From Chiloscyllium plagiosum (Eukaryota), in assembly GCF_004010195.1 (NCBI RefSeq), contig NC_057753.1:14514191-14569826 (forward strand): a DNA stretch of 55,636 bases, written 5' to 3'. Made by a program: the position numbers and the translations under genes. This document shows positions 2,436 through 55,439 of the stretch, piece after piece (positions within the stretch are counted from its first letter, which is position 1; every line of letters starts with the position of its first letter). A model generated the notes under the pieces. The model searched no databases. It saw nothing but the letters and a program-made list of their open reading frames with translations, and was not told where the DNA came from.

Positions 2436-2473
2436 AGTTTTTGTACGGGGCAAAACTGTTTATCGTCACTGTG
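2436..2473 (-). other. RSS of V2 (22-nt spacer)
   Basis: Minus strand reads CACAGTG, 22 nt spacer, ACAAAAACT. Confidence 0.9.
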
Positions 2474-3918: not shown

Positions 3919-4079
3919 NNNNNNNNNNNNNNNNNNNNNNNNNNNNNNNNNNNNNNNNNNNNNNNNNNNNNNNNNNNNNNNNNNNNNNNNNNNNNNNNNN
4001 NNNNNNNNNNNNNNNNNNNNNNNNNNNNNNNNNNNNNNNNNNNNNNNNNNNNNNNNNNNNNNNNNNNNNNNNNNNNNNN
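3919..4079. other. Assembly gap (N run)
   Basis: 161 consecutive N. Confidence 1.
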
Positions 4080-7945: not shown

Positions 7946-9038
7946 ATGAAAACGGAGGGGCGATTAATGTTGATCATCCTCAGGCTGAATGCAATCATCC
8001 CAGGTGAGTTGCACTTTAGATTCTCACCATAATCATCATGCGATCTTTTTCACGTCACCGTTTTGAGACAGCATTATGACTCGACTTGTTAAAGCTGCCC
8101 TTTATTATTGAGTGCTGGAGGTAAGCACAAAAAAAGGCAGCACCTTCCAAACCAACGACCATATCCTACTCGAAGGACAGGGCAGCTGATACATGGAACG
8201 CCATTAGTGGCAAGTAGCCCTCTAAGTCACTCACCACCCTGACCCTATGGTGTCACTGGGTCAATATCCTGCACTCCTCTCTCTAACGGCTCCCTGGGCC
8301 TACCTCCATAACAAGTGCTATAGCTGTTTTAAAAGGCAGCTCACCATCTTTTCCATGGGTATTGGGGGTAGTAAACAAACGCTATGCCAGCCAGCAACGC
8401 ACACAACTCTTCAGGCATCCAATCACCCAGTAGCTAATAGCATATTGGGGCATCAGGTCGAGACATTTCCTCAGAGTGAATGTTGAGAAGCAAAGACTCT
8501 GACATAAGGACGGATAACGTGAATGCTGTAAATGTCTCTTTTTTAAAAAACTACCAGACTGTGAAACACAGGGATGGGAAGAGAAAAGACTTTATTTAAA
8601 ATAGTTTGAGAAGAAACAGGGAATGTGAGTATATACCCATTGGAATAAATGACCAGTTTCCTGTTGGGAAATGCAATGCGTTTCCAGGAGACTTGATGCT
8701 TGCACTGTTATCGCCTCTCATCATTTCTCCCATGGAGATTGATTCTATGTTACAGAGCTCCTGGCCAATGAGCAGATCGCACAGTCTCCCCTGGCACTGG
8801 AAGCTGTGGAAGGCTCCACAGTGACAATGCACTGCAGCACCAATGCTTTGCTCAGCTTCGTGAAGTGGTATCAATGGCGGGGTGGACGGGATCTGAAACT
8901 TCTAATCGTCGCCTCGGGCAGCCTGGTCACAGCTGGGAAGGTTCAGGCCACTCTTGACCGGGAACAGAAACGCAGCACCTTGACCATCAGCGACATCGGG
9001 AGGGATGATGCTGCCATCTACCTCTGCGGGGTGATCAC
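7946..9038 (+). CDS. Divergent TCR V gene segment 3 (V exon 8756-9038; best leader candidate 7946-8003), same orientation as D-J-C
   Basis: TTACAG acceptor, then LLANEQIAQSPLALEAVEGSTVTMHCSTNALLSFVKWYQW...ATLDREQKRSTLTISDIGRDDAAIYLCGVI. A phase-1 leader MKTEGRLMLIILRLNAIIP/GTGAGT lies downstream of TATAAA (7894-7899). The leader assignment is less certain than the V exon. Confidence 0.85.
8125..8430 (+). mobile_element. Old LINE 3' fragment in the V3 intron
   Basis: Similar to the reverse complement of the 31085-31375 and 36195-36560 repeat (GGCAGCTCACCA...CTT, GATACATGGAAC). Confidence 0.6.
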
Positions 9039-9077
9039 CACCGTGATGCAATCCCATGAGCATGCAGTACAGAAACC
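9039..9077 (+). other. 23-RSS of V3
   Basis: CACCGTG, 23 nt spacer, ACAGAAACC. Confidence 0.88.
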
Positions 9078-17300: not shown

Positions 17301-18032
17301 TTCCTCAGGGAGTAGGTGTTATAAAGGTGTAAGTGTGCACTGCACCTTTAAGAGAGACTGGAAGCTGGCATGGCCATAGAGATGACAGAGCGTATTGAAA
17401 GAACTTCAAAAGTAAAATTTGACTGTCAAACCAATAGTGCAGTTGAGTTACCATGTAACAAAAACAAATTCATATTCTGCCAATCTGTTTAAATTATGCC
17501 CCAAGATACCAAAATCCAATCAAATTTCAATTCAGTATTTTCATAATATTAAAACCAATGAAATGATGCGATGTTTTAGGGTATAAAACAAACATTTTGA
17601 ACAGTTAGGGGGAGAGTTGCCAAGCCAATAACAAGTACAGACTGCCAGCAGAACAGATATCTGAAAGGTATCTGTCTATAAAAATTTAGCACAGCAGAAC
17701 ATCGAAAAGACAACAGAGGAAAATCTTCAGAGGAAGAGGCAGTTTGAAAGCTGACCGGTTTTGAAAGTTGAATTTTTTTGTAAATCTCAATCCGGATTTT
17801 TTTATCGGAGGAGGTAAAAAAAAGATAGGTTCAAGAGACCAGAGTTATAAGTATTTGTTGGTTTCCATATTCTCTGTTGGACTTAAAGAATAAAGTTGTT
17901 AACTTGTACTTTAATTAGTGACCACTGGGATAATTACTTGCCTCTCGAATATTAACAGATTACACCGTGGGGTGATTTTTTTTCTGTGTTGCTAGTTTAA
18001 ATTAACAGAGGGATTTACCCTGCGTCATAATA
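11306..18032 (+). mobile_element. Decayed Gmr1-like Ty3/gypsy LTR retrotransposon A (LTRs 11306-12033 and 17317-18032)
   Basis: TG...ATA(CA) LTRs of about 720 bp with a polypurine tract before the 3' LTR. Remnants of gag, protease, integrase (14.3-15.7 kb), then RT (WSSSIVLVPKPDG, YLDD at about 16320) and RNase H (DASDIGVG). Confidence 0.9.
14418..14720 (-). mobile_element. HE1/V-SINE-type tRNA-derived SINE inserted in element A
   Basis: Minus strand reads GGGCAGCACGGTGGCAGAGTGGTTAGCAC (A box), GGTTCAATTCC (B box), V-domain-like TTTGCACATTCTCCCCGTGTCTGCGTGGGTTTCCTC, and a (TCTAA)n tail. Confidence 0.85.
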
Positions 18033-37200: not shown

Positions 37201-37991
37201 TGTTGGAAGGAGTGATTACTGAGGGAGGGGATGTCATGCTTGTGTCAGGGACAGAGGGGGTAATGGCAATGAGTTTAATTTCATTTTATTGCCAGAGACA
37301 GCGAGCTCGTGTTTGAATCATCGAGTACAGAAGAGGACCTTCGGCCGATCGAGTCGATGCTGCCAAAGTTATATTAAATGCCCGCTGGTCCCACTGCATT
37401 CCCTTTGTTCCCTCACACCTTACTGGAGTAATCATCACTCCCTAACCCATACCTTGTGTTTATTTCAGAAGGAAAGGCTTACATTTGTGAAACACATCTT
37501 TTAACAGGGAAACTAAGAAAAGGTCTGGTGACGTGGGTCAAGACAGATTGCTTCATTCCTTCATTCTCAGCCTCAGGCAAGCAAAGATTTAAAAGAGAGA
37601 GAGAGAGGAAGGGAGAGAGAGGGAAGTTACAATTTATGACTTTCTTTCGATAACACAAGAACACAATTCCAAGATGTTTCTCGGAGATGGGGTGAGCAGA
37701 GCCCTTGCCCATCAACGTCCATATGGGATTCTCTCCACGCTGCCAGATCTTGAAGCAGTTAGGAATTATAGCTGTGTGGGAGAGTGAGGCAGGGTTGGAG
37801 GTGAGGTCCAGGTCAAGGCGAGTGAATTGGAATTTCAGCTGGACAAGGGCTCCTGACTCATTCACTCACTCATTGAGGGAACTTCCACCAATCCCCCAAG
37901 GAGTTGGTCTGGGAACAGCACAGATGTTCGTCTCGTCACCTTGAATCAGAGAGGGTGAGATCATCTGATCTGCATGCAGCAGTCAGTGTGC

Positions 37992-38077
37992 AGTTTTTGT
38001 ACTGCTTTGTATCACTGTGGGGATATATACAGCTGGGACACAGTAATACAATCTGCTGCATCGCCCGTACAATAACC
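37992..38077 (+). CDS. TRDD: TCR D-delta segment (coding 38020-38038, GGGATATATACAGCTGGGA) with 5' 12-RSS and 3' 23-RSS
   Basis: AGTTTTTGT, 12 nt, CACTGTG, D, CACAGTA, 23 nt, ACAATAACC. Open in all three frames (GIYTAG, GYIQLG, DIYSW). Confidence 0.95.
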
Positions 38078-38352
38078 TCTCCAACCTCAGAAGCCCCTCT
38101 AAATCCTTTCTAATAACCCTTCTGGCTTACCCAAAGCTTTTGCCTTACACCCTTCCAAACCCCCATCCCTTCCCCTTTTCCATTCTGTGAGTTTTCCCCA
38201 CTTTGAGTCTGTATTGATTCCGGCTGCTGGATTTACATGAAGACATGTCCAGTTGCTTTCTCTCTCTCTTTCGTCCGTACCGACCCTAGAGAAGGGATCC
38301 TGAGTAGATAAGGGGACAGCGAGTGGATTTTGTCCAGGGATTGACCTGCGTG

Positions 38353-38415
38353 TGTCATATGGAGATACCGAGAAGCTCCTATTCGGGAATGGGACCAGGC
38401 TAATCGTGAGACCCA
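38353..38415 (+). CDS. TRDJ: J-delta 1: SYGDTEKLLFGNGTRLIVRP
   Basis: GGATTTTGT-12-CTGCGTG (weak heptamer), FGXG motif, GTGAGT donor. Confidence 0.9.
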
Positions 38416-38855
38416 GTGAGTACGTTGTTCTGAACGAGGCTTTACATTAAGTCTGTTTTATTTTCTCTGTCTCTCTCTCTCTCTCTCTCCATGTGCACAG
38501 AAGCTGCCAAAACTCTTTACTTTCTGTAACAATTTCTCCTTGGCATGCGCGAGCTTGGTTAAGGATCTGACTGCTATCTCTCAAATCTTGCATTTGTTTC
38601 CACCGCAGAACAGGGGGAGTGAGAGGGGATTTGCCATGTTTCATTGGGAATCCGAACTGGAACAATCCAGACAGCTCTGTAGTTTGCCGAGGATCCCGAG
38701 TTGGAGACCCCCTGAAAGAGCTGGGAAGGTCGTGCACTTTCTCAGGGGTTCCAAGCATCTTCTTTTTTGCTTGATGCATATATATATTGAAAGAACTAGT
38801 CACGAAATGCCCCCTTGGCCCGCCTTGGGTTTTCCAATCAGTGCCAAAACAAGTG

Positions 38856-38905
38856 GGTGACCACCTATGAACATTTGGAACCTTAAGAACTGATGTCTGA
38901 CCCAA
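38856..38905 (+). pseudogene. Possible decayed J relic
   Basis: GGTTTTCCA-12-ACAAGTG, then ACA TTT GGA ACC ... GAA CTG ATG TCT GAC CCA A followed by GCAAG instead of GTAAG. Contains a stop and a frameshift. Confidence 0.4.
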
Positions 38906-39011
38906 GCAAGCTATAGACTTGGGTGGTGGGGACATGGTGAACTGCCTCTGTGTCACTGGCTTAATTGGCATGCGCCCTGTTTGAGTTTTGACGTGGAGAA
39001 TTATCATTGTG

Positions 39012-39072
39012 TAAGATATTGCTTACAGACCACTAATATTCGGAGCAGGAACCAAATTGACTGTGGAGCCAA
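39012..39072 (+). CDS. TRDJ: J-delta 2: (stop)DIAYRPLIFGAGTKLTVEP
   Basis: AGTTTTGAC-12-CATTGTG, FGXG, GTAAGT donor. Confidence 0.92.
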
Positions 39073-39528
39073 GTAAGTGTAAACTATTGGTGTCAATTTC
39101 ACATGTTCTCCAGTCCTGGACTGCACAACTTGGAGAACAGGGTGACAAAATATTAATTGGCATTAAGAGAGAGTAATCCTGTACTCAGAAAGGGTTTCCC
39201 CAAAAGGCTAGAGTGTTAATTGCCAAATGTTGGATGCTTCGTAGAGAGTGCAACTCAGTCAGTTGGCAGAAATTTGAACCCAACAGCATCTTCCCGTATT
39301 CCTAATAATTCTGAACCATGGTGTGGCTTGGAAATCACCTTTCCTTGCGCTCCCTCTCAAAGTACCAGACCCTTGCGTTGAAAGCGGACGGCATGGTCAG
39401 TCTAGAGCAGAAAGGTTTCAGCCCAGTGGCCAAACCCACCACTCCTCCCCACCCCCTCAGTTACAGGTCGAATGGGGTTGGAATTTCTGGCGAGTTGGCA
39501 GGTATATGTCAGGCTGGTTATCACTGTG

Positions 39529-39577
39529 TATGATCCACTGATCTTTGGAGCTGGGACCCAAGTGACTGTGGAACCAA
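39529..39577 (+). CDS. TRDJ: J-delta 3: YDPLIFGAGTQVTVEP
   Basis: GGTATATGT-12-CACTGTG, FGXG, GTAAGT donor. Confidence 0.95.
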
Positions 39578-39800
39578 GTAAGTTGAGATGTTTACCTGGG
39601 GTGCTTAGCACTTGTGAAATCCGCACCGTCAGTGCTGGGTAATTCATTGCAGGGGCACGGTGTGTTAATGCTCTGGTGTAAACTATTGAACTATAGCAGG
39701 TTTCAGTGGAGTGGGGACAGGGAATAGAAATGGGCTCCGGGTGACTGAGTGGGTATCATTGGAACAAAGTAAGATTTTTGTCTAGGTGGCTGTCACTGTG

Positions 39801-39857
39801 CAGGTTATAATCTAAAGCTGATTTTCGGCAGCGGTACTAAACTGGAGGTCGTGCCAA
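39801..39857 (+). CDS. TRDJ: J-delta 4: GYNLKLIFGSGTKLEVVP
   Basis: GATTTTTGT-12-CACTGTG, FGXG, GTAAGT donor. Confidence 0.95.
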
Positions 39858-40439
39858 GTAAGTACAAACTGAGCGTCTTTTGTTGCGAGTGAATGCCATT
39901 TCTGAGCTGTGTGGCCCTTGGAGGGACGAACAGAGGATATGTCAGGGAAGCCACCGTCTGGTGCTCAACAGCCCTAGGGCTGTACTGTACTGGGCCTCAG
40001 GCCTGGACTTTCGGCACAGTCGTACAGAACAAAAGGCCCTTTGACCCATTGGGCCTGCCCTTCCCTAGTAGATAGACCATTACCAGCGTGAACAGAAATT
40101 CACCTCAGACTCCCACTAAAACCTCCCCAGTTCTTTCGAATGCTGATGCAAGGGAAAAATAAAGTGAAGGTTTGCAATGGAGTTCAAAGACAAATGATTC
40201 ATGATTATCTCCTCTTTTAAAACAAAACCCATTCCCTCCGATTTTCCCACGTCAATGGTAGATTATTCAAAGGAACCTGGGTGACAGGCTAATCTGACCA
40301 GGAATTGGATGCTAACGGGAATCCCACCAGACAGGAATTTCTGGACTCCCCAAATTAATGTGGAGGAGGGGGAAGATGGTTTAATGAGGGTGGGGAGAGT
40401 GCGGGGTGGAAAATAGTAATTGTCACCTGGGTATCTTAA

Positions 40440-41045
40440 TTCAGACCTTCGAGTATAGGAGTTGGGATGTCATGTTGAGGTTTGTACAGGACATTGGTGA
40501 AGCCTCTTCTGGATTATTGTGCCCAGTTCTGGTCTCCCTGTATTATTAAGGAAGGGTATTATTAAACTGGAGAGGGTTCAGAAGAGATTTACTAGGACGG
40601 TGTTGGGTGTGGAGGGTTTGAGTTAGAAAGAAAGGCTGGATAGGCTGGGACCTTTGCCACTGCAGCATAGAAGGTTGAAGGGGTGACCTTATAGAAATAT
40701 ACAAAATCATTCAGACTATAGATAATGTGCATGGCAAGGGTCAGTTCCCTGGGATGGAGGAGATCAAGACTGGGGATTTTTTTTTTAAGGTGAGAGGAGA
40801 AAGGTTTAAAAAAGGACACAGAGGCGATTGTTTCACCCAGAGAGTGACTCGTAATTGGAGAAACCCGTGGATGCGGGCACAGTTATGGCATTTAACAGTC
40901 ATTTGGATCAGAACATGAACGGAAGAGGTTTAGAAGGATATGAGCCAGGACCAGGGAAGTGGGACTGTATAGTTTGCCAACATCCTCGGCGTGTTCTGGT
41001 CGAACTGAAGGGTCTGTTTCTGGGCCGTATGACGCCATGGCCTGC
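40440..41045 (+). mobile_element. CR1 LINE 3' fragment
   Basis: DYCAQFWSP and LERVQKRFTR motifs, CR1 3' end. Confidence 0.8.
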
Positions 41046-41143
41046 AAATTGAATGTACCCCCCAGCCAAAGGCAAAGGAAAACCCAAGGCATTAGCGTGC
41101 ATGCGGGTTGGAGTCTTTTTTTGTACCATCTGCTAACACTGTG

Positions 41144-41195
41144 TGGACTGAAAAGATGATCTTTGGCAGTGGGACCCAACTCATCGTGGAACCCA
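41144..41195 (+). CDS. TRDJ: J-delta 5: WTEKMIFGSGTQLIVEP
   Basis: TTTTTTTGT-12-CACTGTG, FGXG, GTAAGT donor. Confidence 0.95.
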
Positions 41196-41787
41196 GTAAG
41201 TCTGATGTTTGATTTCTATCTGGATATTGTCAAACAGGAGTCCTCCTTTTTGGTTGATTTTGCTCTTTTTATTTGAGCGGGAGCTGTCACTCAGCAAGGA
41301 CAAGCAAGGGATGGTGGGGGGCAACATTATCTCAGAGCTTGAGCTAACCCCTTGAGTTCCTCCCTTACTGACTACCCTGATGACTGCTGTTTGGGGAAGG
41401 TCATCCCCTTGAATGTCCCCCGCCTGCCCGCGCCCTCAAATCCCTGAATGTCTGCCAGGGGAATCTTTCCTCGCTCATGAAAAGCAAGTCTTCTATCTGT
41501 CCAAAAACGCTAGTACTGAAGCAGCATTGCAATCAGAGAGGGAATTGGGGACCTCAATAATGTTGTCTAATTGCACTGAAGGCAGATCCTAGACCTCTTC
41601 ACTTTTCAGAACTTTGGGAGGGAGAGGGGGTTGGAGATATTTCCAAACTTTATCTCCGGTTTCCCAATCATCCCATCTGACTTAACGCGATGGTATATTG
41701 TTCTTTTGTAATGGTGAAATAAGGAGGAAGCTGAGATTTACCCCCTCCCCACCCTGGAGTGTTTGTGTCTGAGGAGTAATCACTGTG

Positions 41788-41853
41788 ATGCTTATTATAG
41801 CACTACTGAAAAACTCATATTTGGCAGCGGGACACAACTCAAGGTTCTACCAA
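41788..41853 (+). CDS. TRDJ: J-delta 6: AYYSTTEKLIFGSGTQLKVLP
   Basis: TGTTTGTGT-12-CACTGTG, FGXG, GTAAGT donor. Confidence 0.95.
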
Positions 41854-42231
41854 GTAAGTGATTGAAATGTCTCTCCTTTGCCAGAGCTTCTCAGACAGAG
41901 TCGAGGTCGTTTCCATTATTCAGTTGCAAAGGCACAGCGCCAATAAGATGAGATTTAATGGGCCAGGCATTGACGCACAGCTCACATCTCGCCAAGGGGT
42001 ACAGTGGTCAGATGGGGAATGTGAACTGACAAGTGGAATTCTGGATTAGAGAGGAAGTCCCATTCAGAAAAGTTTGGCTGGGTACCAATAATTTGAGTGA
42101 AGGAGGCCTCGTTTTTCGTGTTAAGGGGTTGTTGCTGACAGAGTCCAACAACTTAGAGGTCATTAAGGTGGTCTCAAGGAAGGGATGGGAGAAATATAGA
42201 GCCACATTTCCCCCCTACAGCCCCCAACCCC

Positions 42232-42392
42232 CCCACACACACTCGGACATAGACACACATACACAGACACTCAGGCAGAAACTCAGACACACAAACGCAC
42301 ACACTTAGACATGGACTCACGTACACACACACACAAACACGCACACATACACACACGCATACAGACACACACACATACACACACACACACGG
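42232..42392. repeat. (CA)n-rich microsatellite
   Basis: Imperfect CA repeats. Confidence 0.85.
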
Positions 42393-43023
42393 TTGTGTAG
42401 ACACACGAGCGGTAACAAAGTAGGGATCAAAACATCACCCCTCGCCCACCCTCAGGAATTGTTTTACCAATAAATGTCGCTGCAGAGTTATCAGGAAGGC
42501 AAAAGAAGGTAAATATGGGGCAATTGATTGTCCCATGTGTCTGCTTTCATGTCTAGAACGGGGTCCAGAAAGGTGGGGGGAGGTCACAGTCTGAAACGGG
42601 GGTAGGTCATTTCGGACTGAAGTGAGGAGAAGTGACTTCACCCAGAGGGTGGGGGAGCCTCTGGGTTTCACTGTCGGGGGTCGCAACATTGAATGATTTC
42701 AAAAAGTAACTAGCTATCGGACTATTGGATCAAAGGGTGATGTGGGAGAATAGGATCATGAGATGGATGATCAGATATAATCCCATTGAATGGGGGGGGG
42801 GAATGACGGGGCCGAGCAGCACAGCCCGATGTTTCTGTATTTTCAAACTAGTGAACAGCAAAGAAACTTGGAGGGGGGGGGATGGTTGCATCTGTTTGGG
42901 TGAGCAGATAGAGAAGGAACATGAAGCCAGCAACATGAGGTAATTGTGAGGGAGACTAAACCAAGCTTTGACTGCACTGTGGCTGTGGCTGGGTCTGAAT
43001 TTGTAACAGCTGGTAACACCGTG

Positions 43024-43086
43024 ATAGAGTGTACCGTGCTGAGAAGCTGATTTTTGGAGGAGGGACCAAACTCACGGTGGAACCCA
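43024..43086 (+). CDS. TRDJ: J-delta 7: RVYRAEKLIFGGGTKLTVEP
   Basis: TGAATTTGT-12-CACCGTG, FGXG, GTAAGT donor. Confidence 0.92.
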
Positions 43087-43502
43087 GTAAGTCTTGTGGC
43101 GTATCTTCTCGGGAACGGTGTCGTTAGCCCAGAGAAGGCCCACCAGATTTATAACAGTGATGGCGGGAAGAGAAATACTCCAGGGTCGCAAAGAGTGAAG
43201 GGGAGCAGGCACGGTCGGTTGAGCGATGTACACAGAGCAGGCAGGGAAGGAGAATTCAGTGTAGACAGCAATGGGAAATTAACAAGGTGGAGGGAAGGCT
43301 GAACAGCTTTTAGAGCTCTCCTTACCAATCTTGTGCTTTTCAAATGTGCAAATCTAACAGAATGAGATTCAATGAGGTCCAGGGAGTTTGGGGAGACAAA
43401 TTTGGGACCTGTCCTGACATGTTTTTTTTTGGAGCACTTGAAATCTTAACATTCAAACCAGGGTCAATGTGAATCCTCCCATGACTTGTCCATTTCACTC
43501 GG

Positions 43503-43565
43503 GAACCAACTACAGAGGTAGGAAACTTGCCTTCGGCAGTGGGACCAAACTCACCACCAAACACT
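43503..43565 (+). pseudogene. TRDJ: J-delta 8 pseudogene: TNYRGRKLAFGSGTKLTTKH
   Basis: FGSG is intact, but the heptamer is CACTCGG, no nonamer is recognisable and the donor is a weak GTAAC. Confidence 0.75.
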
Positions 43566-43579
43566 GTAACCCCCATAGC

Positions 43580-43890
43580 TGCTTAGAGGTCTGGACAGAG
43601 TGGACGTGGAAAAGATGTTTCCAAGGGTAAGGTAGCCTCAAGGTGAAGGGCCAACCTTTTGGAATTGAAATGGGGAGGAATTTATTCAGCCAGAGTGTTG
43701 GAGGGAAAACCTATTGCCACACAGAGCTGTGGAGGTCAAGTCACTGAGTGTATTTAAGATAGAGAGGTAGGTTCTTCATTGGTGAAGGGATCGAGGGCTA
43801 CAGGGAGAATGGGATTGAGAGACACCATGATCGAATGATGGAGCAGACTTGACGGGCCAAATGGCCTAATTCTGCTCCTATCCCTTATGG
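43580..43890 (+). mobile_element. CR1 LINE 3' fragment
   Basis: GGCCAAATGGCCTAATTCTGCTCCTAT tail. Confidence 0.7.
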
Positions 43891-44199
43891 TCCAAGCCAT
43901 CCCACCGTTTCAAAGTTTGGTTTGTAGCTAAGCAATCAGCAAGCCTACTCTTATCTATCATCAGACCAAACGGTAGTGCAGATAAAACTGCCTTACAAGC
44001 TTTGGCAAACTTAATCCAGTATGAGTTCTGTCCATAGAGAGCTCCCCCACCACAATCCTCCTGTCTCTGGGAAACAAACACCATCTCAAAATGCCCTGGC
44101 AACAATGAGTCGGTAGAGTCTTTTTTGAATTAAAAAAATAGCGCTCCATTTTTACTTCTGTGGCGGGTGACTGTTTTTCTACCATCTGGCAGCACGATG

Positions 44200-44259
44200 A
44201 CAGCTATGTAAATATAAAGCTGTTCTTAGTCAGTGGAACCAGGCTTATGATGGAAAGCA
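44200..44259 (+). pseudogene. TRDJ: J-delta 9 pseudogene/ORF: SYVNIKLFLVSGTRLMMES
   Basis: TGTTTTTCT-12-CACGATG (coding-proximal GTG lost), FGXG changed to LVSG, GTAAT donor. Confidence 0.7.
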
Positions 44260-44639
44260 GTAATTTCTTAGGACTGACTATCGTCAAACCTACAGAGGAG
44301 AGTAAAAAAAAAAACACCTCTGACCAAGCCTCAAACACTTTCGCACACAGTGCTGGTGGAAGGTCGGGGAGGGTGGGGGAGAGGGTTAGAGAGTACCACT
44401 GCCACTGACAAACCGAAATCCCAGTCAGCCCCACGTATCAGTTCTGGACGACCTCTCGACTCATCCGTCCATTATCTTACAACCCCAGGGATTCGGGAAC
44501 AGAAATGGGTTAATCAGACCCTCCAGACCTGCACCATTATTTCTGGTTGACCTGCGGCCGAAATCCACATGTCTTCCTTGGGTCCATCCCCCTTCATAAC
44601 TGAGCTAAACAAAAAATATATATCTATCGCAGCTTTCTC

Positions 44640-45185
44640 AATAGGTAGACAGGGTGGTGAAAGTGGCGTTCAGCACTCTTGCCTGCATTGCTCAGACCTT
44701 TTTGTATAGGAGTTGGAGACGGCATGTTGAGATTGTAAAGGACATTAGTGAGGCTTCTTCTAGAGTACTGTGCCCGGTTCTAGTCATCCTGCCGTCGGAA
44801 GGATATTATTAAGATGGAGAGGGGTCAGAAACGATTGCCAGGAATGGAGGGTTTGGGTTATAAAAATAGGCTGGGAGCTTCTTCTCTGGAGTTTGAGCCT
44901 TATCGAGGTGGATAAAATCATGAGGGGTATAGATAAGTTGAATGCTGAGGGCCTTCTCCCCAGCTGGGGGATTTCAAGACTAAGGGCACATTTTTAAAGT
45001 GAGAGAAAGATTTAATTAGGGACATGAGGGGCAACTTTTGTTTTAACGCAGGGTGCGGCTCTTGTGTGGAACGAAGTTCCAGAGAAAGCGATTGATACTG
45101 TTACAATTATAATGTTTGAAAGACATTTGGATAGGTTCATGAATAGGAACAGTTTGAAGGGACATGGGCCAAACCCGGAAAATTC
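44640..45185 (+). mobile_element. CR1 LINE 3' fragment
   Basis: LEYCARF and WNEVPEK motifs. Confidence 0.75.
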
Positions 45186-45327
45186 TAAGGAACAATGTCT
45201 GACATGCCAGTTTAGACCCAGAGAGAACCCCCCAACCCCACCCCACCCCAACCGCCTGCCACATAAAGACTTGTGTTCGTCTCCGTTGTGGTGAGGGTGA
45301 ATTTTTGTAGCACCTGGCACCATTGTG

Positions 45328-45381
45328 CTAGCAACTGGAAACTCATCTTCGGCAGAGGCACCAGACTCTCTGTGCAAGCCA
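45328..45381 (+). CDS. TRDJ: J-delta 10: SNWKLIFGRGTRLSVQA
   Basis: AATTTTTGT-12-CATTGTG, FGXG, GTAAGT donor. Confidence 0.93.
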
Positions 45382-45917
45382 GTAAGTGGTTAGAAGTTAC
45401 TGCCTCAGATCTGATTAAGTGTATCTGTCACAGACTGCAATGGGACTGTTAAATACTGAAGTGGGCTGTTGTTTCGTTTTGTTTTATTTTTAATTGAGGA
45501 GGTTACAAGGGGCGATCTGGGGTTAGAGGCTCTGCAGAAGGCATTAATTGTCTCTATCTAGGGGCCAAATCAGTCTCTGCAGAGGATGTGCTAACCAGAG
45601 GCTTAGTGTGAACCGTCCCAGGGATTGACAATGGGAAGGCAGTGATGTATGGCAAAACATTCGGCCCATCGGCCAAAGTCTACAATTTTGCATTTCAGGA
45701 ATATTTACTCAAGTGCCATAGAGACAAGATTAATAGAACTTTACAGTAGAGACAGGCCCTTTGGTCTGTCGAGTCCAATACAAGCTCCCCATCTCATCCT
45801 CATTCTTCAGCCCTGTCTCCTTAGCCCTCCACATTCATCCATTGCAATACATGCCGAGCTCCCTTTAAAACCTTCATTGCTCTGCAGGCTGCTCATTCCG
45901 CATCCCAACATGGTAAG

Positions 45918-46252
45918 TGTTCTCCTAACTTCACGCCGAACTCTCTCACTGACAATCTGGAAGTTGTGACTCCCTGCTAACTGACTGGTGGAAACGAAAA
46001 ATCCTTTCTTCCCTTCTCGAAATTGTTTATCACCTCAATAAAGGTTAGGCCTCAATCGTCTCTGCTCCGTCCCCCATATCTCTCTGTTCTCCTAATTTCA
46101 CGCCGAACTCTCTCACTGACAATCTGGAAGTTGTAGCTCCCTGCTAACTGACTGGTGGAAACGAAAAATCCTTTCTTCCCTTCTCGAAATTGTTTATCAC
46201 CTCAATAAAGGTTAGGCCTCAATCGTCTCTGCTCCGTCCCCCATATCTCTCT
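45918..46252. repeat. Near-perfect tandem duplication of about 166 bp
   Basis: TGTTCTCCTAA(C/T)TTCACGCCGAACTCTCTC...CCCCATATCTCTCT occurs twice in a row. Confidence 0.88.
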
Positions 46253-46596
46253 CTCTCTCTCTCTCTCTCTCTAATCTTCCCTCCTCCCTAGAATCCCTCA
46301 GGCCCCAAGAAATTCTCCAGTGCCCTGAAGAAATTTGGAATGATTCCAACAAAACTCTGGCCTTAGTTTATGGCCAAAACGCAGGCTCGTGTGGTCAGTG
46401 CCAATGGCAATGGCCTGCTTCACTGAGTGGACCACTGGGGAAGGATTTGGCCTGACCTACATGTGACCCCTGACCCCACAGCCCCACAGTTAGAGATGGA
46501 CAATGAATGCCCATACCAATCCAGCGATGTCCGTAGCCCATGAGCGGATGTGAAAGCTATGTTTGGAGGGTTTCTGTCTTGGGCATATTTGCTGTG

Positions 46597-46663
46597 TGAA
46601 ATTACTATAATCGCAAAGAGAAGCTCACATTTGGCAGCGGCACCCAACTGACAGTTAAACCTA
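46597..46663 (+). CDS. TRDJ: J-delta 11: (stop)NYYNRKEKLTFGSGTQLTVKP
   Basis: GGTTTCTGT-12-TGCTGTG, FGXG, GTAAGT donor. Confidence 0.9.
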
Positions 46664-47956
46664 GTAAGTTACAGCTGAGGCTTTTTTTTTTCATTCATTC
46701 TGCTGATGTGCTGTTTATTTTATTTTGTTCAGTGGATCGGATCCTGGTGAAGAGAGTCTGGGCAGAGAGCCAAAGTAGTGCTGCAAAGAGAGAGAGAGAC
46801 AGACAGACAGATTAAAGGAATGGTCATAGATATTTTAGCTGGGAGAGCAATTTGGAGAGAAAGTGTGTGTTCCAATCCTGGTTAAATTCAAGACACTGAG
46901 GCCAGGAATGTCCGAAATTTGGCAGGCACTGAACGGCTGAACTGTCGCGCGGCCAAGATGTTAAAACCCCATCTTGATCGCTCACGGAATCTTTTGATTG
47001 CAAAGAAAGTCTATGGGCTCGTCAGTGCCAACAAATGCTTCTTATTTATCCCTCTAACAGAACCTGCCAGAAAAGTTCTCCCCCGGTTGCAGATATATGT
47101 CCAGCTTTGAAACATCCTGTACAATCCGCCTTCACTGTTCACCAGGGCAGCTCATTCCAAATCCTAACAAGTCCCCAAAGCTCGAGGGTAGGCGGTTTAA
47201 GGTGAGAGGGGAAAGGTTTGAAAGGGACCCCAGGGAAAACATTTTCGCGCAGAAGGTGATGCGTGTGCGGAATGAACTTTCAGAAGAAGTATTGGAGGCT
47301 GGTACATTTAAAGGGCATCTGGATGGGTATATGAATAGGAAGGGTTTGGAGGGATATGGGCCAAATGCTGGTAAATGGGACTGGATTAGTCTAGAATTGG
47401 ACAGAAAGCTCTGTTTCAGTGCTGTACACCTCTATGACCCTGAGTAAAGAGGCATCCCTTCATCACACTCCGAGCTCTGTTGCTGACAGTCCTGATGGTG
47501 TGGCTCCCTGATTACTAACTGGTGGGAGAGAAATATCTATTCTGTCGAAATTGTTCACAGATTTGATCACCTCAGACAGGGTTCGGCCTCGATCTTCTCT
47601 GCCCCATACCTGATCTCTCTCTCTCTCTCTCTCTCTCTCTAATCTTTCCTTGAGTCTGTAATCCCCCGTGCCCGAGGAAATCCCTTATTTCCCGAAGAAA
47701 TTTCGAATGATTCTAACAAAATCCAGGCCTGAGTAGACGGGCCGGGCTCAGACCCACGTGGTCAGTGCCAATTGCAATGGCCTGCTTCAGCAAGTGGTCC
47801 ACTAGGGAAGGACCTGGTCTGACCCACATGTGACTCCTGACCCCACAGCTAGAGACGGGCAATGGAATGCCCGTGCCAATCCAGCGATGCCCGTGCCCTG
47901 TGAATGATTTTGAAAGCTATGTCTGGAAGGTTTTTGCCTTGAGCAAGTTAACTGTG

Positions 47957-48013
47957 TAGATTACAGAGCGAAACTCATATTTGGCGGTGGAACCCAACTG
48001 ACAGTTAAACCGA
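47957..48013 (+). CDS. TRDJ: J-delta 12: DYRAKLIFGGGTQLTVKP
   Basis: GGTTTTTGC-12-AACTGTG, FGXG, GTAAGT donor. Confidence 0.92.
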
Positions 48014-49701
48014 GTAAGTTAGAGCGTGTTTTCTTTTTTGTTTAATTTCATTCTGCTTTTGTGTGGGGTTTTTTTTATTTTGTTCAGTGGAAAGCAGTGT
48101 CTGGGCAGAGAGCCAAGGTAGTGCCACAGAGAGAGAAGGAGCGAGAGAGAGAGAAAGAAACTATTGCAGGCATTTTACCTACAAAACTGTATGTTCCAGT
48201 CCTGCTCCGATTAAAAACATTGAGACCAAGAAGCTAATCTCCTGTTGTCACAAATGTGGCAGGCACTGAAGGGCTGAATCGTGGCGTGGCCCGAGATATT
48301 AAACTCTCTTTTTCAAATGCCCCCTTCCCAGAAACTATTGATTGAACAGAAATTGCATGGTTTGTCAGTGCCACCAAGCCCCTTTTTTTTCAGTCTAACA
48401 GAGCCGTGTGACGGAGTTTTCACTTCCAGCCAGATTGAGGGAGGCGAAACGTAAATTGGTCACGTCCAAATGCGTATCCAGCTGTCCTTTGAATCCCCCC
48501 TGTGGAATCCACCTCCACCCCCCCCCCCGCCTCCCCCAGGCAGCTCACTCCAAATCCTAACGACCCCCTAAAACTGGCTGGCACAAGGTGAGAGGGGAAA
48601 GATTTAAAAGAGTCCTAAGGGGCAACTTTGTCCCACAGAAGGTGGTGTGCGCATGGAATGAGTAAGCGGTGGAGGTCGGTACAATTGCAGTATTCAAAAG
48701 AGGAATAGATAGAGTCAATAGCCAGAGACCTTTCTCCAGGGCAGGATTGACTGATACGATGGGTCAAAGTTTTTAAGATATTAGGAGAAAGGTCAGAGGT
48801 AGGTTGTTTACGCAGAGAGTTGTGAATGTATGGAATGCATTGCCAGAGGTAGTGGTGGAAGCAGAGTCACTAGGGACATTTAAGCGACTGCTAGACATGC
48901 ACATGGATAGCAGTGAGTTGAGGGGTGCATAGGTTAAGTTACTATATTTTACATTAAGATTAAACCTCGGCACAACACCGTGGGCCTCAGGGCCTGTTCT
49001 GTGCTGTACCTTTCTATGTTCTATGTTCTAAAAGGCATCTGCATGACAGAGACATGGGTCAACTGCTGGCGAATGGGACTAGATCAATTTAGGAGATCTG
49101 GTCGGCATGGACGAGTTCGACCGAAGGGTCAGTTTCCATGATGTACAGCTCTATGACTCAATGACACTAATTAAAGGGGTTTATCCTCATTTCACTTCGA
49201 GCTCTCTCGCTAACAATCTTGAACCGGTCACTGCCTAGTTCCTGACTGGTGGCAACAAAATATCCTCCCCTCACCTGTCGAAATTGTTCACAAATTAGAT
49301 CACCCCCATTCCCCCATAAAGGTCACCCCTCAATCTTCTCCACTCCGTGTCCGATCTCTCTCTGTCTCTCTCCCTCTCTCTCTTTCTCCCTCTCTTTCTA
49401 ATCTTCCCTCCTCGCTGAAATCTTTCAGGCCCAAGGAATTCCCTCATTTTCCTATGAAATGTGTCAAGATTCAAACAAAGCTCTGGCCTGAGTTTCTGGC
49501 CAAATCCAGACCCTTCTGATCAGCGACTAGTGCAATGACCTGCTTGACCAAGTGATCCGCTGGTCTGACCTCCATGTGACCCCTGAACCCACGGCTAGAG
49601 ATGGGCAATAAATGCGTCTGCCAATCCAGCGATGCCCGTACCCCGTGAACAAATTTGAAAGCTACGTTTGGGAAGTTTCTGTCTTGGACGTGTTTACTGT
49701 G

Positions 49702-49846
49702 TAGATTACTATGATTATGGTTATGATATCACAGCAAAACTCATATTTGGCAGCGTTATTCCTGATGAAGGGCTTTTGCCCGAAACGTCAATTTTACTGC
49801 TCCTCGGATGCTGCCTGAACTGCTAGCACCACTAATCCAGAACAAA
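49702..49846 (+). pseudogene. TRDJ: J-delta 13 pseudogene: DYYDYGYDITAKLIFGS, 3' end replaced by a Penelope-like fragment (about 49756-49843)
   Basis: AGTTTCTGT-12-TACTGTG is intact. After FGS the sequence switches to ATTCCTGATGAAGGGCTTTTGCCCGAAACGTC. The original GTAAGT donor survives at 49847. Confidence 0.88.
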
Positions 49847-50839
49847 GTAAGTTAGAGCTGAGGCTTGTTTTTTATTTAATTTCATTCTGCTTGTGTGCTG
49901 TTTTAGGGGTTTTTTTTTTCTGTGGAACAGATCCTCTTGAAGAGAGTCTGGGCAGAGAGCCAAGGCAGTACTGCAGAGACAGGGAGAGGGGGGGAGGGGG
50001 AAAGAGAGAGAGAGAGTCAAAGAGAGAGAGAGCAATATAGAAGCGACTGCAGGCATTTTAGTGATGACAGCTGCTTGCTCCAATCCTGCTTCAATTAAAG
50101 TTACTGAGGCCAGGAAACCATCCTCCTGGCGTCTGAAATGTGATGGCCGAATCGTTGTATGGTCAAGATATTAGACTCCATCATTGAAATTTCCCCTCCC
50201 AGAAACTGTTGATTGAAGATGAATTGTTTTGATTTGTCAGGACTTTTTTTTTTATTAGGCGAAAGTGAGGACTGCAGATGCTGGAGATTAGAGTCAGGAT
50301 TAGAGTGGTGCTGGAATAACACAGTAGGTCATGCAGCATCCGAGGAGCAGGAAAATCGACGTTTCGCAGGATTTTTTTTTTATTCTTTTATTTCGGTCAC
50401 CTGCATAAAAGGTTTCACCTCAGCTTGATTGAGGGAGGCAACATTCAAATTGCTCACTTTCAAATATAGGTACACCCTCCTTTGAAATCTCCTGTCGAAT
50501 CTACTTCCACTATCTCACAGGCAGCTCACACTAAATCCTAAGGATTCAAACTTAGGGGGCAACGGTTTAAGGTGAGAGGAGAAAGATTAAAAAGCGACCA
50601 GAGGGGGCGGTTTTGTAATGCAGAGCGTGCTGTGCGTATCGAATGCCCCGCCAGAGGAATTGGTGAGGATTTCGTACAACTGCAAACTTTAAAAGGCATC
50701 TGGATGTTTGGATGAATAGGAATGGTTCAAAGGGCTCTGGGTCAAATGCTGACAAATGGGACTTGATTAATTAAGGCTGTTTGATGTGCATGGATTGGTT
50801 GGGTCTGTTTCCATGCTATTCATCTCCATGACTCTGAGT

Positions 50840-51197
50840 AAATGATCAGAGGATTAGATAGGGTAGACAGCGAAAGTCTTTTTTTACCGTGGATGACGAC
50901 GTCAGCTTGTACGAGGGGTCATAGCTACAAAATTGAGGGGTGATAGATTTAACACAGATGTCAGGGGCAGGTTCTTTACTTAGAGAGTGGTAAGGGTGTG
51001 GAATGGCCTGCCTGACAATGCAGTTAACTCAGCCACATTAGGGAGATTTAAACAATCCTTGGATAAGCACATGGATGATGATGGGATAGCGTAAGGTGGG
51101 GGGGGGGGGGTGTCGGGATTAGATTAGTCCACAGCTCGGCGCAACATTGAGGGCTGAAGGGCCTGTTCTGAGTTGTATTGTTCTACGTTCTATGTTT
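50840..51197 (+). mobile_element. CR1 LINE 3' end
   Basis: TGGAATGGCCTGCC... with a (TATGTTC)-like tail. Confidence 0.75.
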
Positions 51198-52699
51198 GAA
51201 AGAGGTTTCTCCTCATCTCACTCCTCGCTCTTTTGCTGAAAATGTTGGAATTGCAATCCCTCATCTCCCCCACCCAACCCAGGTTACTGATGACAAAACG
51301 TCTCCCATTTCGGTTTGACGTAACTCATGCAGATATGTTTCACTGAACGGGTGATAAAGAAAATTAACTCGTCAGCCCGCAGTCCACGTTTTAGTGGATT
51401 CTTTTTCTCTCCCACCCACTCTCGACTAAAAGTGGAGAAACCCAAAGGCATTAGGCTTCCCCAAGGACGAAGTGTGGTTACATTTTCTGAAACGAAACCA
51501 AGTGAGCAAGAGCTTACTCAAAGCATGTGGGAGAGTCACTGAGGAGCGGTTGCCACATCATCTCGTGTGGTTGGAAAGAGTTGTTTTATGGGTGACACCT
51601 GGTCTCACTGTAACAGCAGAAAAGTGAGTAGCTGACTCTGAGACCCAGAGGATCCTTTCAACACTGTCCTCTCACTCTGACATTTTCCTGAAGTAAACTT
51701 GTTAGTTAGGCATGCCCTGGAACACACAGGAAGTTAAGTATTACCAAAGGCATATATTTCTTGGGGGAGAGTGTTGAGAAATTAAGGCAGTGGGGCTTTG
51801 ACTAGCCACTGAAAATGTGGGGATCAGAATGTCTGAAACGTGCCCACACTGCCAGGGGAACTTCTGCTCTCTCTTGGCTGTGTTCAGAGGGGGGACAGAG
51901 ATGAGTCAGTGACTGCAAAGTGCAGCAGAAAAATAGACCCACAGTGACCCAGTGCAGCCTCTCCGTTCTGCACCGCACCACCTTTCCAAGCAATATTGTC
52001 CCAGCTCCCCTTAACCAGCCTCCACCAGGACCTGGGTCAGTTCACTCAGAGGAGGGCTCCTGCCCTGGACGGTCACCACTGCATGGGATGTTCTTGAAAA
52101 GGAGACAGTCAGACAGTCGGCCATTGTAGGTTTGTTCACGGCAGCCATTTCATGTTATGAGCGCTCTGAAATTGTCTTTACAGACGGGGGGGGGATGGCA
52201 AAAAAGGATGGGAGAGCTTGAGAAGCCTGTCTATTCGGTCTAACAGAACAGTGCGAGACAGGTCTTACTGCGGCTAGAATAAAGGGAGCAAAACTTAAAT
52301 CATCACTTCCAAATTTCTGTTCAGTAATTGCCGATGAAATCCGCCTCCCAGGTGGCTTATTCTTAATCCAAACAATTGGCATGAAGTGAAAGAGTTTTCT
52401 GCTCATCTCACTCCTCGGTCTGTGACTGAAAATCTTGAAATTGTGGAACCCGCCCCCAGATGAGAGAAAATATCTCTCATTGTCCCCTTGCAGTTGGACA
52501 TAACCGGGTCACATCACATACTTGGATGGGTGATAAGGAAAAGTAACTGGCGCCAACCAACTGTCCAGTTTTTAATGGATTATTTGTTTTTTTCAGTTAA
52601 AACTGGAGAAACCCATAGGCTCCCCCCGAGTAGGGAGAGTGGTTGCATCTTCCGTGACCTGACTGTGTGAGCAAGTTCCTTCTCGAAATGCAATGCAAT

Positions 52700-53390
52700 G
52701 CCATAAAGTCATACAGCATGGAAACAGACCCTTCAGTCCAACTATCGTCCCATGCCGACCAGGGTAAATTAATCTAGTCCCGTTTCCCAGTACGTAACCC
52801 ATATCCCTGTTCAAGTCGCCATCCAGATGCCTTTTAAATGTTGCAAATGTTGCTTCCTCTGGCAGCTCATTCCATACACGCACCACCCTCTGTGTGAAAA
52901 AGTTGCCCCTCAGATTGCTTTCCCTTCTCACCCTTAAGCCTATGCCCCTCTAGTTCTGGGTTCCCCCACCCTGGGGAAAGACCTTATTAATTCACCCTAT
53001 CCATGCCCCTCACGATTTTATAAACGTCTGTAAGGTCACCCGTCAGAGCACCGACGCTCCAGGGCAAACAGTCCCAGTCTATCCATCCTCTCCCTATAGC
53101 TCAAACACTCCAACCCTGGCGTGATCCTGGTGCATCTTTTCCGAACCCTTTCGAGTTTTGCAACATCCTTCCTGCAACAGGGAGACCGGAATTGAACACA
53201 GCATTCCAGAAGTGGCCGAAGTAATGTCCTATTTGGCCGCAATTTCACCTCCCAACTCCTGTACTCAATGCCCTGACCGATGAAGGAACCGAAAAGGATG
53301 CAGGGCTTTTGCCCGATATTCGATTTTCCTGCTCCTTGGATGCTGCCTGACCTGCTGTGTTATTCCAGCACCACTCTAATCTTGATGATA
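52700..53390 (-). mobile_element. CR1 LINE 3' fragment followed by a Penelope-like fragment
   Basis: Minus-strand LRPLLECCVQFRSP...LERVRKR. 53298-53385 matches the Penelope-like terminus. Confidence 0.8.
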
Positions 53391-54039
53391 AAGGGATGGT
53401 CTCGCTGTAACAGCCAGGGTTTGAGCAAAGTTCTGCCTGTGAGACCCCCGGGGTCTTTTCAACGTTGTTGTTTCATTCTAACATCAAACTGAAAGACTTA
53501 ACTTGGTACACATGCAAAGGCACAGATAAATATGTAGGGGTGGGGAGAGTGAGTAGGGCAGTGGCATTTAGTTTGTCCACTGAAAATTTGGGGCTCAGCA
53601 ATTCAGCAGTACTCCCACACTCAAATGGGGTATTTCAGCTCTCTCTCAGCTGGGTTTCACAGGTGGCAAAAATATGTCAGTGGCATCGAGATACAGCAGA
53701 AAAATAGACCCACAGTGATCCCGGGGCAGTCTCTCTATACTGCATTGTGCCACCTTGCCAAGTGATATTGTCTCAGCTCCCCTTAACCAGTCTCCACCAG
53801 GATCTGGGTAGATTAGATTAGATTAGATTCCCTACAGTATGGAAGCAGACTAAATGCCACTGCCCTACTCCCTCTCCCCACCCCTACAAACTGTCTCCCA
53901 CTGCCCCATTTCAGTTGGGCGTAACCAGGCCAGATGTGTTTCGCATCGTGTACTCTGAAGGGTGACAAAGAAAATTAATTCACCCACCCACCATCCACTT
54001 TTTAATGGGTTCTTTGTTTCCTCCATTAAAGCCAAGACG

Positions 54040-54230
54040 TGGAGCTGCTGGTGTTGGACGGGGGGGTGGATCAAGTTAAAAATCTCACAACATCAGGTCA
54101 CAGTACAACAGGTTTATTTGGAAACACTAGCTTTCGGAGCGTCGCTCCCTCATCAGGTAGCTAGTGAGCTGTGCTCCGAAAGCTAATACTGCCAAATAAA
54201 CTTTTTGGACTGTAACCTGGTGCTGTGTGT
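54040..54230. mobile_element. Short Penelope-like element with inverted halves and a hammerhead motif
   Basis: 54085-54140 is inverted against 54172-54228. Minus strand reads TACCTGATGAGGGAGCGACGCTCCGAAAGCTAGTG. Confidence 0.65.
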
Positions 54231-54384
54231 GTGTTTTTTTTTTAAGTTTCTCAATTAAAATCAGAGAAACTCCCAGGCACTATCCTTCCCGAGGAGACTC
54301 AGCGGTTACATTTTCTGCGACCCCCATACCCCCCCATCCCCCCCGATTGTGTGAGCAGGTTTGTTCATGAAATGCAATGGAAAG

Positions 54385-54930
54385 TCATACTGCATGGAAG
54401 CAGACCCTTCCGTCCAACTCATCCGTGCCGACCCAGATACCCCTAACCTTATCTATTTCCTGTTTGGCCAGCACTTGGCCCATATCCCTCTGAACCCTTC
54501 CCATTAATGTCCCATCCAGGTGCCTTTTAAATGTTACAATTGTACCAGCCTCCACCACTTCCTCTGGCAGCTCGTTCCATACACGGGCCACCCTCTGTGT
54601 GAAAAAGGTCCCTTTTAAATCTTTTCGCCTCTCATCTTAAACCTATGCCCTCTAGCTCCCAGGGAAAATACTTTGCCTATTTATCTTATCCATGCCCCTC
54701 ACTATTTTATAAATCTCAATGAGTTCTCCCCTCAGCCTCCAACGCTCCAGGCAAAATGGCCCCAGCCTGGAGCTCAAAGCTGTCCACTCTCTTTAGCACC
54801 CTGATAAAGGTCTCTCCCCAGTTTGACCGAATCCTTGCTGGAGTTGGGTGATCGGAATTGTCTCAGGGTATCTCCAGAGATAAATTGAAAAGTTAGGCCA
54901 AGCGGATGAGGTCTTGGTGCAGGATGAGGA
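54385..54930 (-). mobile_element. CR1 LINE 3' fragment
   Basis: Minus-strand WNELPEEVVEAGTIVTFKRHLD. Confidence 0.8.
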
Positions 54931-55104
54931 AATCCTTGACATAGGCTCATGTTGGTGAGGTATTGCTGTGGAGAGTCTTTGGTCTGACTGTAGGTCTCTG
55001 ACAGGCAGTGTCCTGCAGGGACCAACGCGGGGAACCCCTGTGGTTGGGAGTAAATGGACAGGGAAGAGAGATTTGATAACTGCCCCAACTTCTTGGTCTT
55101 TCAG

Positions 55105-55410
55105 AGGAGAAAGATGCCACGGGGCCGAAACTGTCGGTCTTCTACCCGCCAGTCGCGTCCGAACAGGGTCTTGTACCTGCGGCAGTCTGTCTGGCCGATG
55201 ACTTCTTCCCCAAGACCATCCAGCTGTCGCTGAAGGTGGAAGGGCACAACCAAACCACCGTGGCCAGACCCGCCATCGTGACAGACGATGGCTACTACAG
55301 GACGTCCAACTTCCAGCCCGTTCCCAGTGGTCAGAGCAACGTCATCATCTGCGAGGCAAAGCACGAGGGCAGTCACTTCTTCGTCAACGTCACCACAGAG
55401 AATGAGGGCG
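55105..55410 (+). CDS. TRDC: TCR delta constant region exon 1 (Ig C1-set domain); later exons lie outside the window
   Basis: TTTCAG acceptor and GTAAGT donor, both phase 1, 306 nt. (K)EKDATGPKLSVFYPP...AAVCLADDFFPKTIQLSLKV...DGYYRTSNF...VIICEAKHEG. Two Cys, no C-strand Trp (as in TRDC), NQT and NVT sequons. Downstream of a 12/23 D and a J cluster. Confidence 0.9.
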
Positions 55411-55439
55411 GTAAGTGGCAGGGGAGGGGTTTGGAGACA

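What the first reader, a model, noticed from the sequence alone, without database searches (positions are those of the whole stretch)
37992..55410. TCR-delta locus with a single recognisable D but 13-14 J segments
Seen: one 12/23-flanked D, followed by 10 intact J, 3 defective J and 1 relic before C-delta. Established: human and mouse TRD use 2-3 D and 2-4 J, and make long CDR3 through D-D joins. Inference: here diversity appears to have shifted from D-D fusion to an alpha-like J array with long, variable 5' ends. Because V is 23-RSS and J is 12-RSS, direct V-J joins and successive replacement by upstream V to downstream J are also 12/23-legal, i.e. possible receptor editing at delta.
Basis: partly seen in the sequence, partly recalled or inferred. 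Interest (0 to 1): 0.7.

Follow-up and report, generated by a model that had tools for sequence, protein, structure and literature searches.

The report
Shark delta locus: one D, many J
This is the working core of a shark's T-cell receptor delta gene, with one diversity piece and ten intact plus three broken joining pieces; it likely assembles by ordinary V-D-J joining in the manner of a beta-chain gene, and the layout is likely shared with other sharks and rays rather than new to this species.

Summary
Observation holds, with one correction. I find one 12/23-flanked D (38020-38038), 10 intact J, 3 broken J and C-delta; the 14th 'relic' J is unsupported. It is the TRD core of a TRA/TRD locus, with 105 J-alpha downstream. 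No second D appears in 1.2 Mb scanned upstream or in two genome-wide patterns.

The locus is expressed. J1 and J3 splice to C-delta in contigs, and the single junction recovered is V + 2 N + this D + J3, in frame. Contig breaks hint at use of J4-J6.

The 'alpha-like' reading fails. J-delta 5' ends are not longer than J-alpha ends, and they lack the TG start (3/10 vs 94/105) and fixed RSS phase (6/10 vs 101/105) that mark direct V-J joining. 12/23 legality of V-J holds in other TRD loci too. The layout resembles teleost TCR-beta (one D, many J).

C-delta proteins of other sharks and rays carry similar J types, and a secondary source implies one D in nurse shark. The primary shark papers were not held. 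The scan's index showed no earlier report of this point. Real, modestly interesting; delta editing untested.

The parts
37992..38019 (+). 12-spacer RSS 5' of D-delta
   Evidence: profile score 25.8
38020..38038 (+). single D-delta core, 19 nt, open in three frames
   Evidence: 12 nt of it (38026-38037) found in a rearranged contig
38039..38077 (+). 23-spacer RSS 3' of D-delta
   Evidence: score 23.2
38353..38415 (+). J1, intact, weak RSS; spliced to C-delta in contigs that keep the unrearranged DNA upstream of it (germline-type transcript)
39012..39072 (+). J2, intact coding part, weak RSS
39529..39577 (+). J3, intact; spliced to C-delta; used in a V-D-J contig
39801..39857 (+). J4, intact; one contig enters it 6 nt inside its 5' end after 528 unlaid letters (likely a rearrangement; letters not seen)
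   Evidence: table 8
41144..41195 (+). J5, intact; contig break at its coding end
41788..41853 (+). J6, intact; contig break at its coding end
43024..43086 (+). J7, intact coding part, weak RSS
43506..43565 (+). J8 pseudogene (no RSS, degenerate 3' end; start approximate)
44200..44259 (+). J9 pseudogene (FGxG lost, broken heptamer)
45328..45381 (+). J10, intact
46597..46663 (+). J11, intact; first of a three-unit local duplication (J11, J12, J13)
47957..48013 (+). J12, intact
49702..49846 (+). J13 pseudogene; repeat fragment at 49756-49843 replaces its 3' half; RSS and donor kept
55105..55411 (+). C-delta Ig-domain exon; spliced at both ends in contigs; transmembrane exon lies beyond the window at about 57080-57184
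8755..9077 (+). D-proximal V exon (open frame) with 23-RSS at 9039; start approximate

Best explanation
This is the expressed D-J-C core of a shark T-cell receptor delta gene with one D and ten intact J, which likely builds its chains by ordinary two-step V-D-J joining through that one D, as a teleost TCR-beta locus does. Shown: the anatomy, the position in front of a J-alpha array, splicing of J1 and J3 to C-delta, and one in-frame V-N-D-J3 junction that uses an antibody-heavy-like V 295 kb upstream of the D. Inferred: CDR3 variety comes from a long 19-nt D readable in three frames, trimming and N addition on both sides, and the choice among about ten J of different length and phase. Also inferred: a germline transcript across D-J1 opens the region, as described for mouse Trdd2, and the many-J state is old in elasmobranchs. 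Chains from NAR-TCR cassettes or IgH clusters further upstream would use the same D-J-C.
For: Single D: it is the only RSS pair with both sides scoring well in 1.24 Mb upstream, both strands. It is the only match to two genome-wide 12/23 patterns and the only copy of its 141-nt region. One C-delta match among 20 candidates scored. 105 J-alpha lie downstream. Splices 38415->55105 (X7, X8) and 39577->55105 (X8), both GT..AG. The X1 contig reads V end + 2 untemplated letters + 12 nt of D + J3; the V end matches the V whose RSS is at -257486 and the 12-mer occurs once in 1.65 Mb; that V's best solved-structure matches are mostly antibody heavy-chain, scFv and nanobody chains. J-delta vs J-alpha: TG start 3/10 vs 94/105, p=7e-5; RSS phase 6/10 vs 101/105, p=0.002; length spread larger, p=0.0005. 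X7 contigs break within 1 nt of the coding ends of J3, J5 and J6 if the assembly word is 31 letters (3 nodes among the 16 ends of the 8 of 72 records shown; chance about 1e-4, post hoc). Of 14 C-delta-type proteins with a J, 10 matched a J-delta of this locus better than any of 105 J-alpha, spread over six different J-delta (species names). PMC5278385 (passage) attributes nurse shark delta CDR3 spread to N additions at V-D and D-J joints, in contrast with multiple D in mouse and human.
Against: Only one junction was seen, from run X1, whose organism label differs from the majority holder's. Direct signs of use exist for J1 and J3 only and indirect ones for J4-J6. 4 of 14 outside J matched a J-alpha better, and margins on 13-16 residues are small; most of those proteins are automated gene models. 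The assembly is fragmentary (101,977 contigs; 20,994 N in the 1.2 Mb upstream). V segments continue to at least 2.3 Mb upstream, where I scanned only about 160 kb of C44. The genome-wide D patterns found no immunoglobulin or NAR-TCR D, so their sensitivity is not validated. C-alpha was not located.
Confidence: 0.75

Rival explanations
1. One reading: the J array works like J-alpha, with frequent D-less V-to-J joins and successive replacement (editing) of the delta chain.
For: V carry 23-RSS and J carry 12-RSS. With one D, any second round could only be D-less. J11 and J12 keep strong RSS. D-less delta joins are reported or proposed in duck (7 clones, PMC5278385) and axolotl (no D at all, PMC12529555).
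Against: J-delta lack the J-alpha TG start and phase lock. The one junction seen contains the D. Mouse Trdj1 joins go 99% to Trdd2 although V-J is equally legal there. Signs of use are confined to J1-J6.
Confidence: 0.12
2. There is a second D that the assembly lacks or that has very degenerate signals, so the locus is a usual two-D TRD with an enlarged J set like platypus (2 D, 7 J) or opossum (2 D, 6 J).
For: Fragmentary assembly. 9.1-38 kb is largely decayed retroelement sequence (read by eye) that could have displaced a segment. The far V field was not scanned end to end.
Against: There is no N between the proximal V (9039) and C-delta. No candidate scored above shuffles in 9100-37990. The secondary account of nurse shark names only V-D and D-J joints.
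Confidence: 0.08
3. The J array is mostly neutral duplication debris: a few 5' J do the work and the rest are dying passengers.
For: 3 of 13 are broken, 3 of 10 intact have weak RSS, J11-J13 arose by local duplication, and direct use was seen only for J1 and J3.
Against: Ten J keep frame, FGxG and donor although they are only 65-84% identical to their nearest delta paralogue. J most like the distal J11 and J12 precede C-delta in skate proteins, including one assembled rearranged chain (P0018 14/16, P0031 11/16).
Confidence: 0.1

Closest known systems
Nurse shark TCR-delta (Criscitiello 2010; Deiss 2019; Ott 2021; none held, known second-hand from PMC5278385 passages and table, PMC12227049 passages and section 6, PMC5931798 passages and section 5)
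   Same: Translocon TRA/TRD locus, IgH-like V joined to delta D-J-C, NAR-TCR cassettes upstream, CDR3 variety ascribed to N additions at V-D and D-J joints.
   Different: I could not see its published D and J counts. I recall, without a call, that the 2010 paper rated shark delta V/J diversity the highest known, which would mean the many-J state is already in print.
Teleost TCR-beta D-J-C (catfish and zebrafish: 1 TRBD, 31 TRBJ; PMC8656973 passages)
   Same: One 12/23-type D followed by a long J array and C. The D cores share a GGGA start (catfish GGGACAGGGGGC as printed there).
   Different: Different chain: this C has the TRDC signature and is followed by J-alpha. The D is longer (19 vs 12 nt). 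The resemblance is one of layout; common descent was not tested.
Platypus and opossum TRD (2 D/7 J, PMC3457774 passages; 2 D/6 J, PMC2275272 table)
   Same: Enlarged J-delta set before one C-delta; VH-like V in platypus.
   Different: Two D and frequent VDDJ in platypus; fewer J.
Human, mouse, salmon and catfish TRD (3D/4J and 2D/2J; 3D/1J; 4D/1J)
   Same: 12/23-flanked D and 12-RSS J; germline transcripts at the J-proximal D in mouse.
   Different: Several D and few J, the reverse of the ratio here.
TCR-alpha J array of cartilaginous and bony fish (PMC10322711 section 7)
   Same: Many J with 12-RSS.
   Different: TG start and fixed RSS phase are present in this genome's J-alpha but not in its J-delta.

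Membership tests
TRD core of a TRA/TRD locus | C exon with TRDC signature CLxxxFxP | tested here: met
   (VCLADDFFP); signature; 84% to a Chiloscyllium punctatum protein, with hits named T cell receptor delta constant
TRD core of a TRA/TRD locus | D with 5' 12-RSS and 3' 23-RSS, J with 12-RSS, upstream of C | tested here: met
TRD core of a TRA/TRD locus | J-alpha array downstream of C-delta | tested here: met
   105 J counted
TRD core of a TRA/TRD locus | C-alpha after the J-alpha array | tested here: inconclusive
   not found by motif or tblastn; N stretches follow the last J
TRD core of a TRA/TRD locus | V-D-J-C transcripts | tested here: met
   one V-N-D-J3 contig; J-to-C splices
Alpha-type J array (direct V-J joining) | TG at the J coding end | tested here: not met
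   3 of 10 vs 94 of 105 J-alpha
Alpha-type J array (direct V-J joining) | RSS position fixed relative to the reading frame | tested here: not met
   6 of 10 vs 101 of 105
Alpha-type J array (direct V-J joining) | D-less junctions and successive rearrangement | tested here: inconclusive
   1 junction seen, with D; repertoire-depth reads not available
Multi-D TRD (human, mouse, teleost) | two or more tandem D able to fuse | tested here: not met
   assembly gaps remain
TRB locus | TRBC constant gene outside the TRA locus | tested here: not met
   C is delta-type and precedes J-alpha; it works like TRB in layout only

The most novel reading that the evidence does not exclude
Sharks keep an ancestral beta-like 'one D, many J' delta locus, from which the many-D/few-J loci of bony vertebrates derive. 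Because the single D is spent in the first join, the spare downstream J also let a failed delta chain be replaced by a D-less V-to-J join, which would be receptor editing in gamma-delta T cells.
Probability: 0.12. Interest if true: 0.65.

Novelty: new member of a known kind. Interest (0 to 1): 0.3.

Why it matters
A germline map of all D and J segments of a shark delta locus makes repertoire data assignable. It tests how sharks get broad delta CDR3 lengths without D-D fusion. If the layout is general in cartilaginous fish, it bears on whether the first D-containing TCR looked like beta (one D, many J) and whether D multiplication at delta arose later in bony vertebrates. Ten intact J-delta exceeds every published count I saw (at most 7), but the primary shark papers were unavailable and probably already show much of this.

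Tried and rejected
Relic 14th J: rejected. D-like pairs with 13-nt spacers upstream are V 3' ends read on the other strand. The tandem 23-RSS behind NAR-TCR supporting V have no convincing facing 12-RSS, so they are not D segments (7 loci).

No RNA holder was listed on record; X7 and X8 are taken as RNA from their GT..AG joints. Single-cell runs gave no test: X14 reads lay on repeats only and X15 laid nothing. X7 contigs run unbroken through J2, J7, J10 and J11, and J12 lay outside; contigs drop rare variants, so this is not evidence of non-use. In one search, 246 joints were not shown and repeats crowded the table.

Three protein searches and one representative search (8 of 28 hits looked up by name) returned no protein named as nurse shark, so published CDR3 could not be checked for this D. 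Patterns for 12/12 and 12/22-23 D missed the NAR-TCR D segments seen and are uninformative. The bacterial promoter scan does not apply to a vertebrate.

Papers not held: PMC3222143, PMC7039070, PMC7909615, PMC1458790. Supplement term searches in PMC3964593 and PMC5931798 found nothing. Table S1 of PMC12227049 showed V gene-model rows and no D or J terms (not read whole). Eight of 19 supplement files of PMC10322711 were not searched. My notebook entry overstated that the scan covered the whole V array and passed C-alpha; correct this.
Full report
Observation. RSS and J-motif scans of the window find one D at 38020-38038 between a 12-RSS and a 23-RSS, ten J with intact FGxG, donor and 12-type RSS, and three broken J (no RSS; lost motif; repeat insertion). 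A J profile puts J8 and J9 far above background and finds no fourteenth segment; J13 is recognised by its RSS, its intact 5' half and alignment with the J11/J12 units. The ten intact J were in the profile's training set, so only the pseudogene scores are independent. The C exon 55105-55411 has the TRDC signature used in PMC10322711 (passage). Its closest protein is from Chiloscyllium punctatum (84%, with a J identical to J1 over 16 residues), so the animal is likely a bamboo shark or near relative.

Wider locus. The window lies on G000 C44. I read 1.2 Mb upstream and 0.4 Mb downstream. Downstream are the C-delta transmembrane exon and 105 J-alpha; C-alpha was not found and may lie in N stretches. 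Upstream are 23-RSS V segments in both orientations, mostly inverted near the D, including antibody-heavy-like V. No other RSS pair has two good sides on either strand, and two genome-wide patterns return only this D. Limits: 20,994 N upstream, and the patterns failed to find other kinds of D. More V and NAR-TCR cassettes lie 1.3-2.3 Mb upstream. There I checked 19 stretches (16 on C44, 3 on small contigs). They hold NAR V-D-J units with their own 12/12 D and supporting V with stacked 23-RSS, but no free 12/23 D.

Expression. Contigs of runs X7 and X8 (one study) splice J1 to C-delta, and X8 also splices J3. The J1 contigs keep the unrearranged DNA upstream of J1, in X8 across the D, so they are germline-type transcripts, as described at mouse Trdd2 (PMC4995090 passages). 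Run X1 (another study and organism label) holds one rearranged contig: the end of the V whose RSS is at -257486, two untemplated letters, 12 nt of this D and J3. By hand it reads in frame. That V is antibody-heavy-like. X7 contigs begin or end within 1 nt of where coding joints at J3, J5 and J6 would branch a 31-letter graph (word size assumed; 8 of 72 records shown), and an X8 contig enters J4 six bases in. These are indirect. So 2 of 10 intact J have direct and 3 more have indirect signs of use; the other five are untested.

Is it alpha-like? PMC10322711 (section 7 read) reports that shark J-alpha start with TG and have precisely placed RSS, serving microhomology-guided V-J joining. In this genome 94 of 105 J-alpha start with TG and 101 of 105 share one phase, against 3 of 10 and 6 of 10 J-delta. 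J-delta 5' ends are no longer than J-alpha ends (24.9 vs 27.4 nt) but more spread. This is what one expects of J that receive a trimmed D with N addition. 12/23 legality of V-J is not special here: PMC12529555 states the same V23/J12 arrangement for other tetrapod TRD loci, while mouse Trdj1 joins go almost wholly to Trdd2. D-less delta joins do occur at low level in duck and are inferred for axolotl, so they are not excluded.

Mechanism. Shown: anatomy, splicing, one V-D-J junction. Inferred: RAG joins V to D and D to one of about ten J, by deletion or inversion according to V orientation. The long three-frame D, N addition and J choice supply CDR3 variety. After one join no D remains, so only a D-less join could replace the chain.

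Comparison. Counts seen in print: human 3D/4J, mouse 2D/2J, opossum 2D/6J (PMC2275272 table), platypus 2D/7J (PMC3457774 passages), salmon 3D/1J (PMC8559430 passages), catfish 4D/1J with TRB 1D/31J (PMC8656973 passages), duck 2D/2J plus a one-D second locus (PMC5278385 passages), axolotl 0D/2J. The layout here is closest to TRB. C-delta-type proteins from whale shark, catshark, smooth-hound, sawshark, sevengill, stingray and skate carry varied J. Ten of 14 match a J-delta here better than any J-alpha and 4 do not; the ten include the near-identical C. punctatum protein. This suggests, weakly, a shared many-J state. PMC5278385 describes nurse shark delta CDR3 as varied by N additions at V-D and D-J joints rather than by multiple D, which implies that the single D was seen in 2010.

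Novelty. Ten paper searches listed no genomic D/J map of a shark TRD. The four primary shark papers were not held and may contain one. Also consulted without bearing on the count: PMC6795676 (passages, section 25), PMC13337447 (passages), PMC3964593 (passages, supplement term search), PMC5931798 (passages, section 5), PMC12227049 (passages, section 6, part of Table S1). The scan's index had nothing near this place or on this sequence; other sharks were noted there with multiplied delta units (unchecked).

Verdict. A real, expressed, ordinary-working shark TRD with an unusually J-rich, single-D layout. The alpha-like and editing reading is unsupported by the tests available. Interest 0.3.

Noticed in passing
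G000:C44:14256401-14256742 (L056:2211-2552; window -257789 to -257448): Intact antibody-heavy-like V with 23-RSS and no D of its own, used in the V-D-J3 contig of run X1; several relatives lie between -268 kb and -162 kb.
   Followed up: yes
G000:C44:13002325-13002505, 12318208-12318268, C95439:11621-11810 and others: NAR-TCR supporting V are followed by head-to-tail 23-RSS copies at about 60-nt period; already noted elsewhere in the scan.
   Followed up: partly
window 1-3000 and up to -400 kb: Most D-proximal V are inverted relative to D-J-C, so they would join by inversion; only the V at 9039 is co-oriented within the window. My check of collinearity across the N stretch 3919-4079 was not conclusive.
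   Followed up: partly
window 37955-38415: Germline D-J1-C transcript. In X7 the contig starts at 38041, inside the D's 3' heptamer, with no laid cover upstream, which may mark a start site or a filtered record.
   Followed up: no
window 77222-81144 (downstream loci L024): The first J-alpha segments resemble the first J-delta segments (for example the J at 78216 and J1 share TEKL-FGNGTRL), hinting at an old duplication of the array start.
   Followed up: no
window 12000-29000: Several decayed LTR-retroelement-like copies fill the gap between the proximal V and the D (read by eye).
   Followed up: no
window 51200-54800: Three or more diverged repeats of a 1.1-1.7 kb unit without J between J13 and C-delta; short stretches look like acceptor-donor pairs, but no splice to them was listed.
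   Followed up: partly
window 55411-77000: No inverted V-delta was found between C-delta and the J-alpha array, unlike mammals; N stretches at 55637-56734 and 58091-62211 could hide one.
   Followed up: partly
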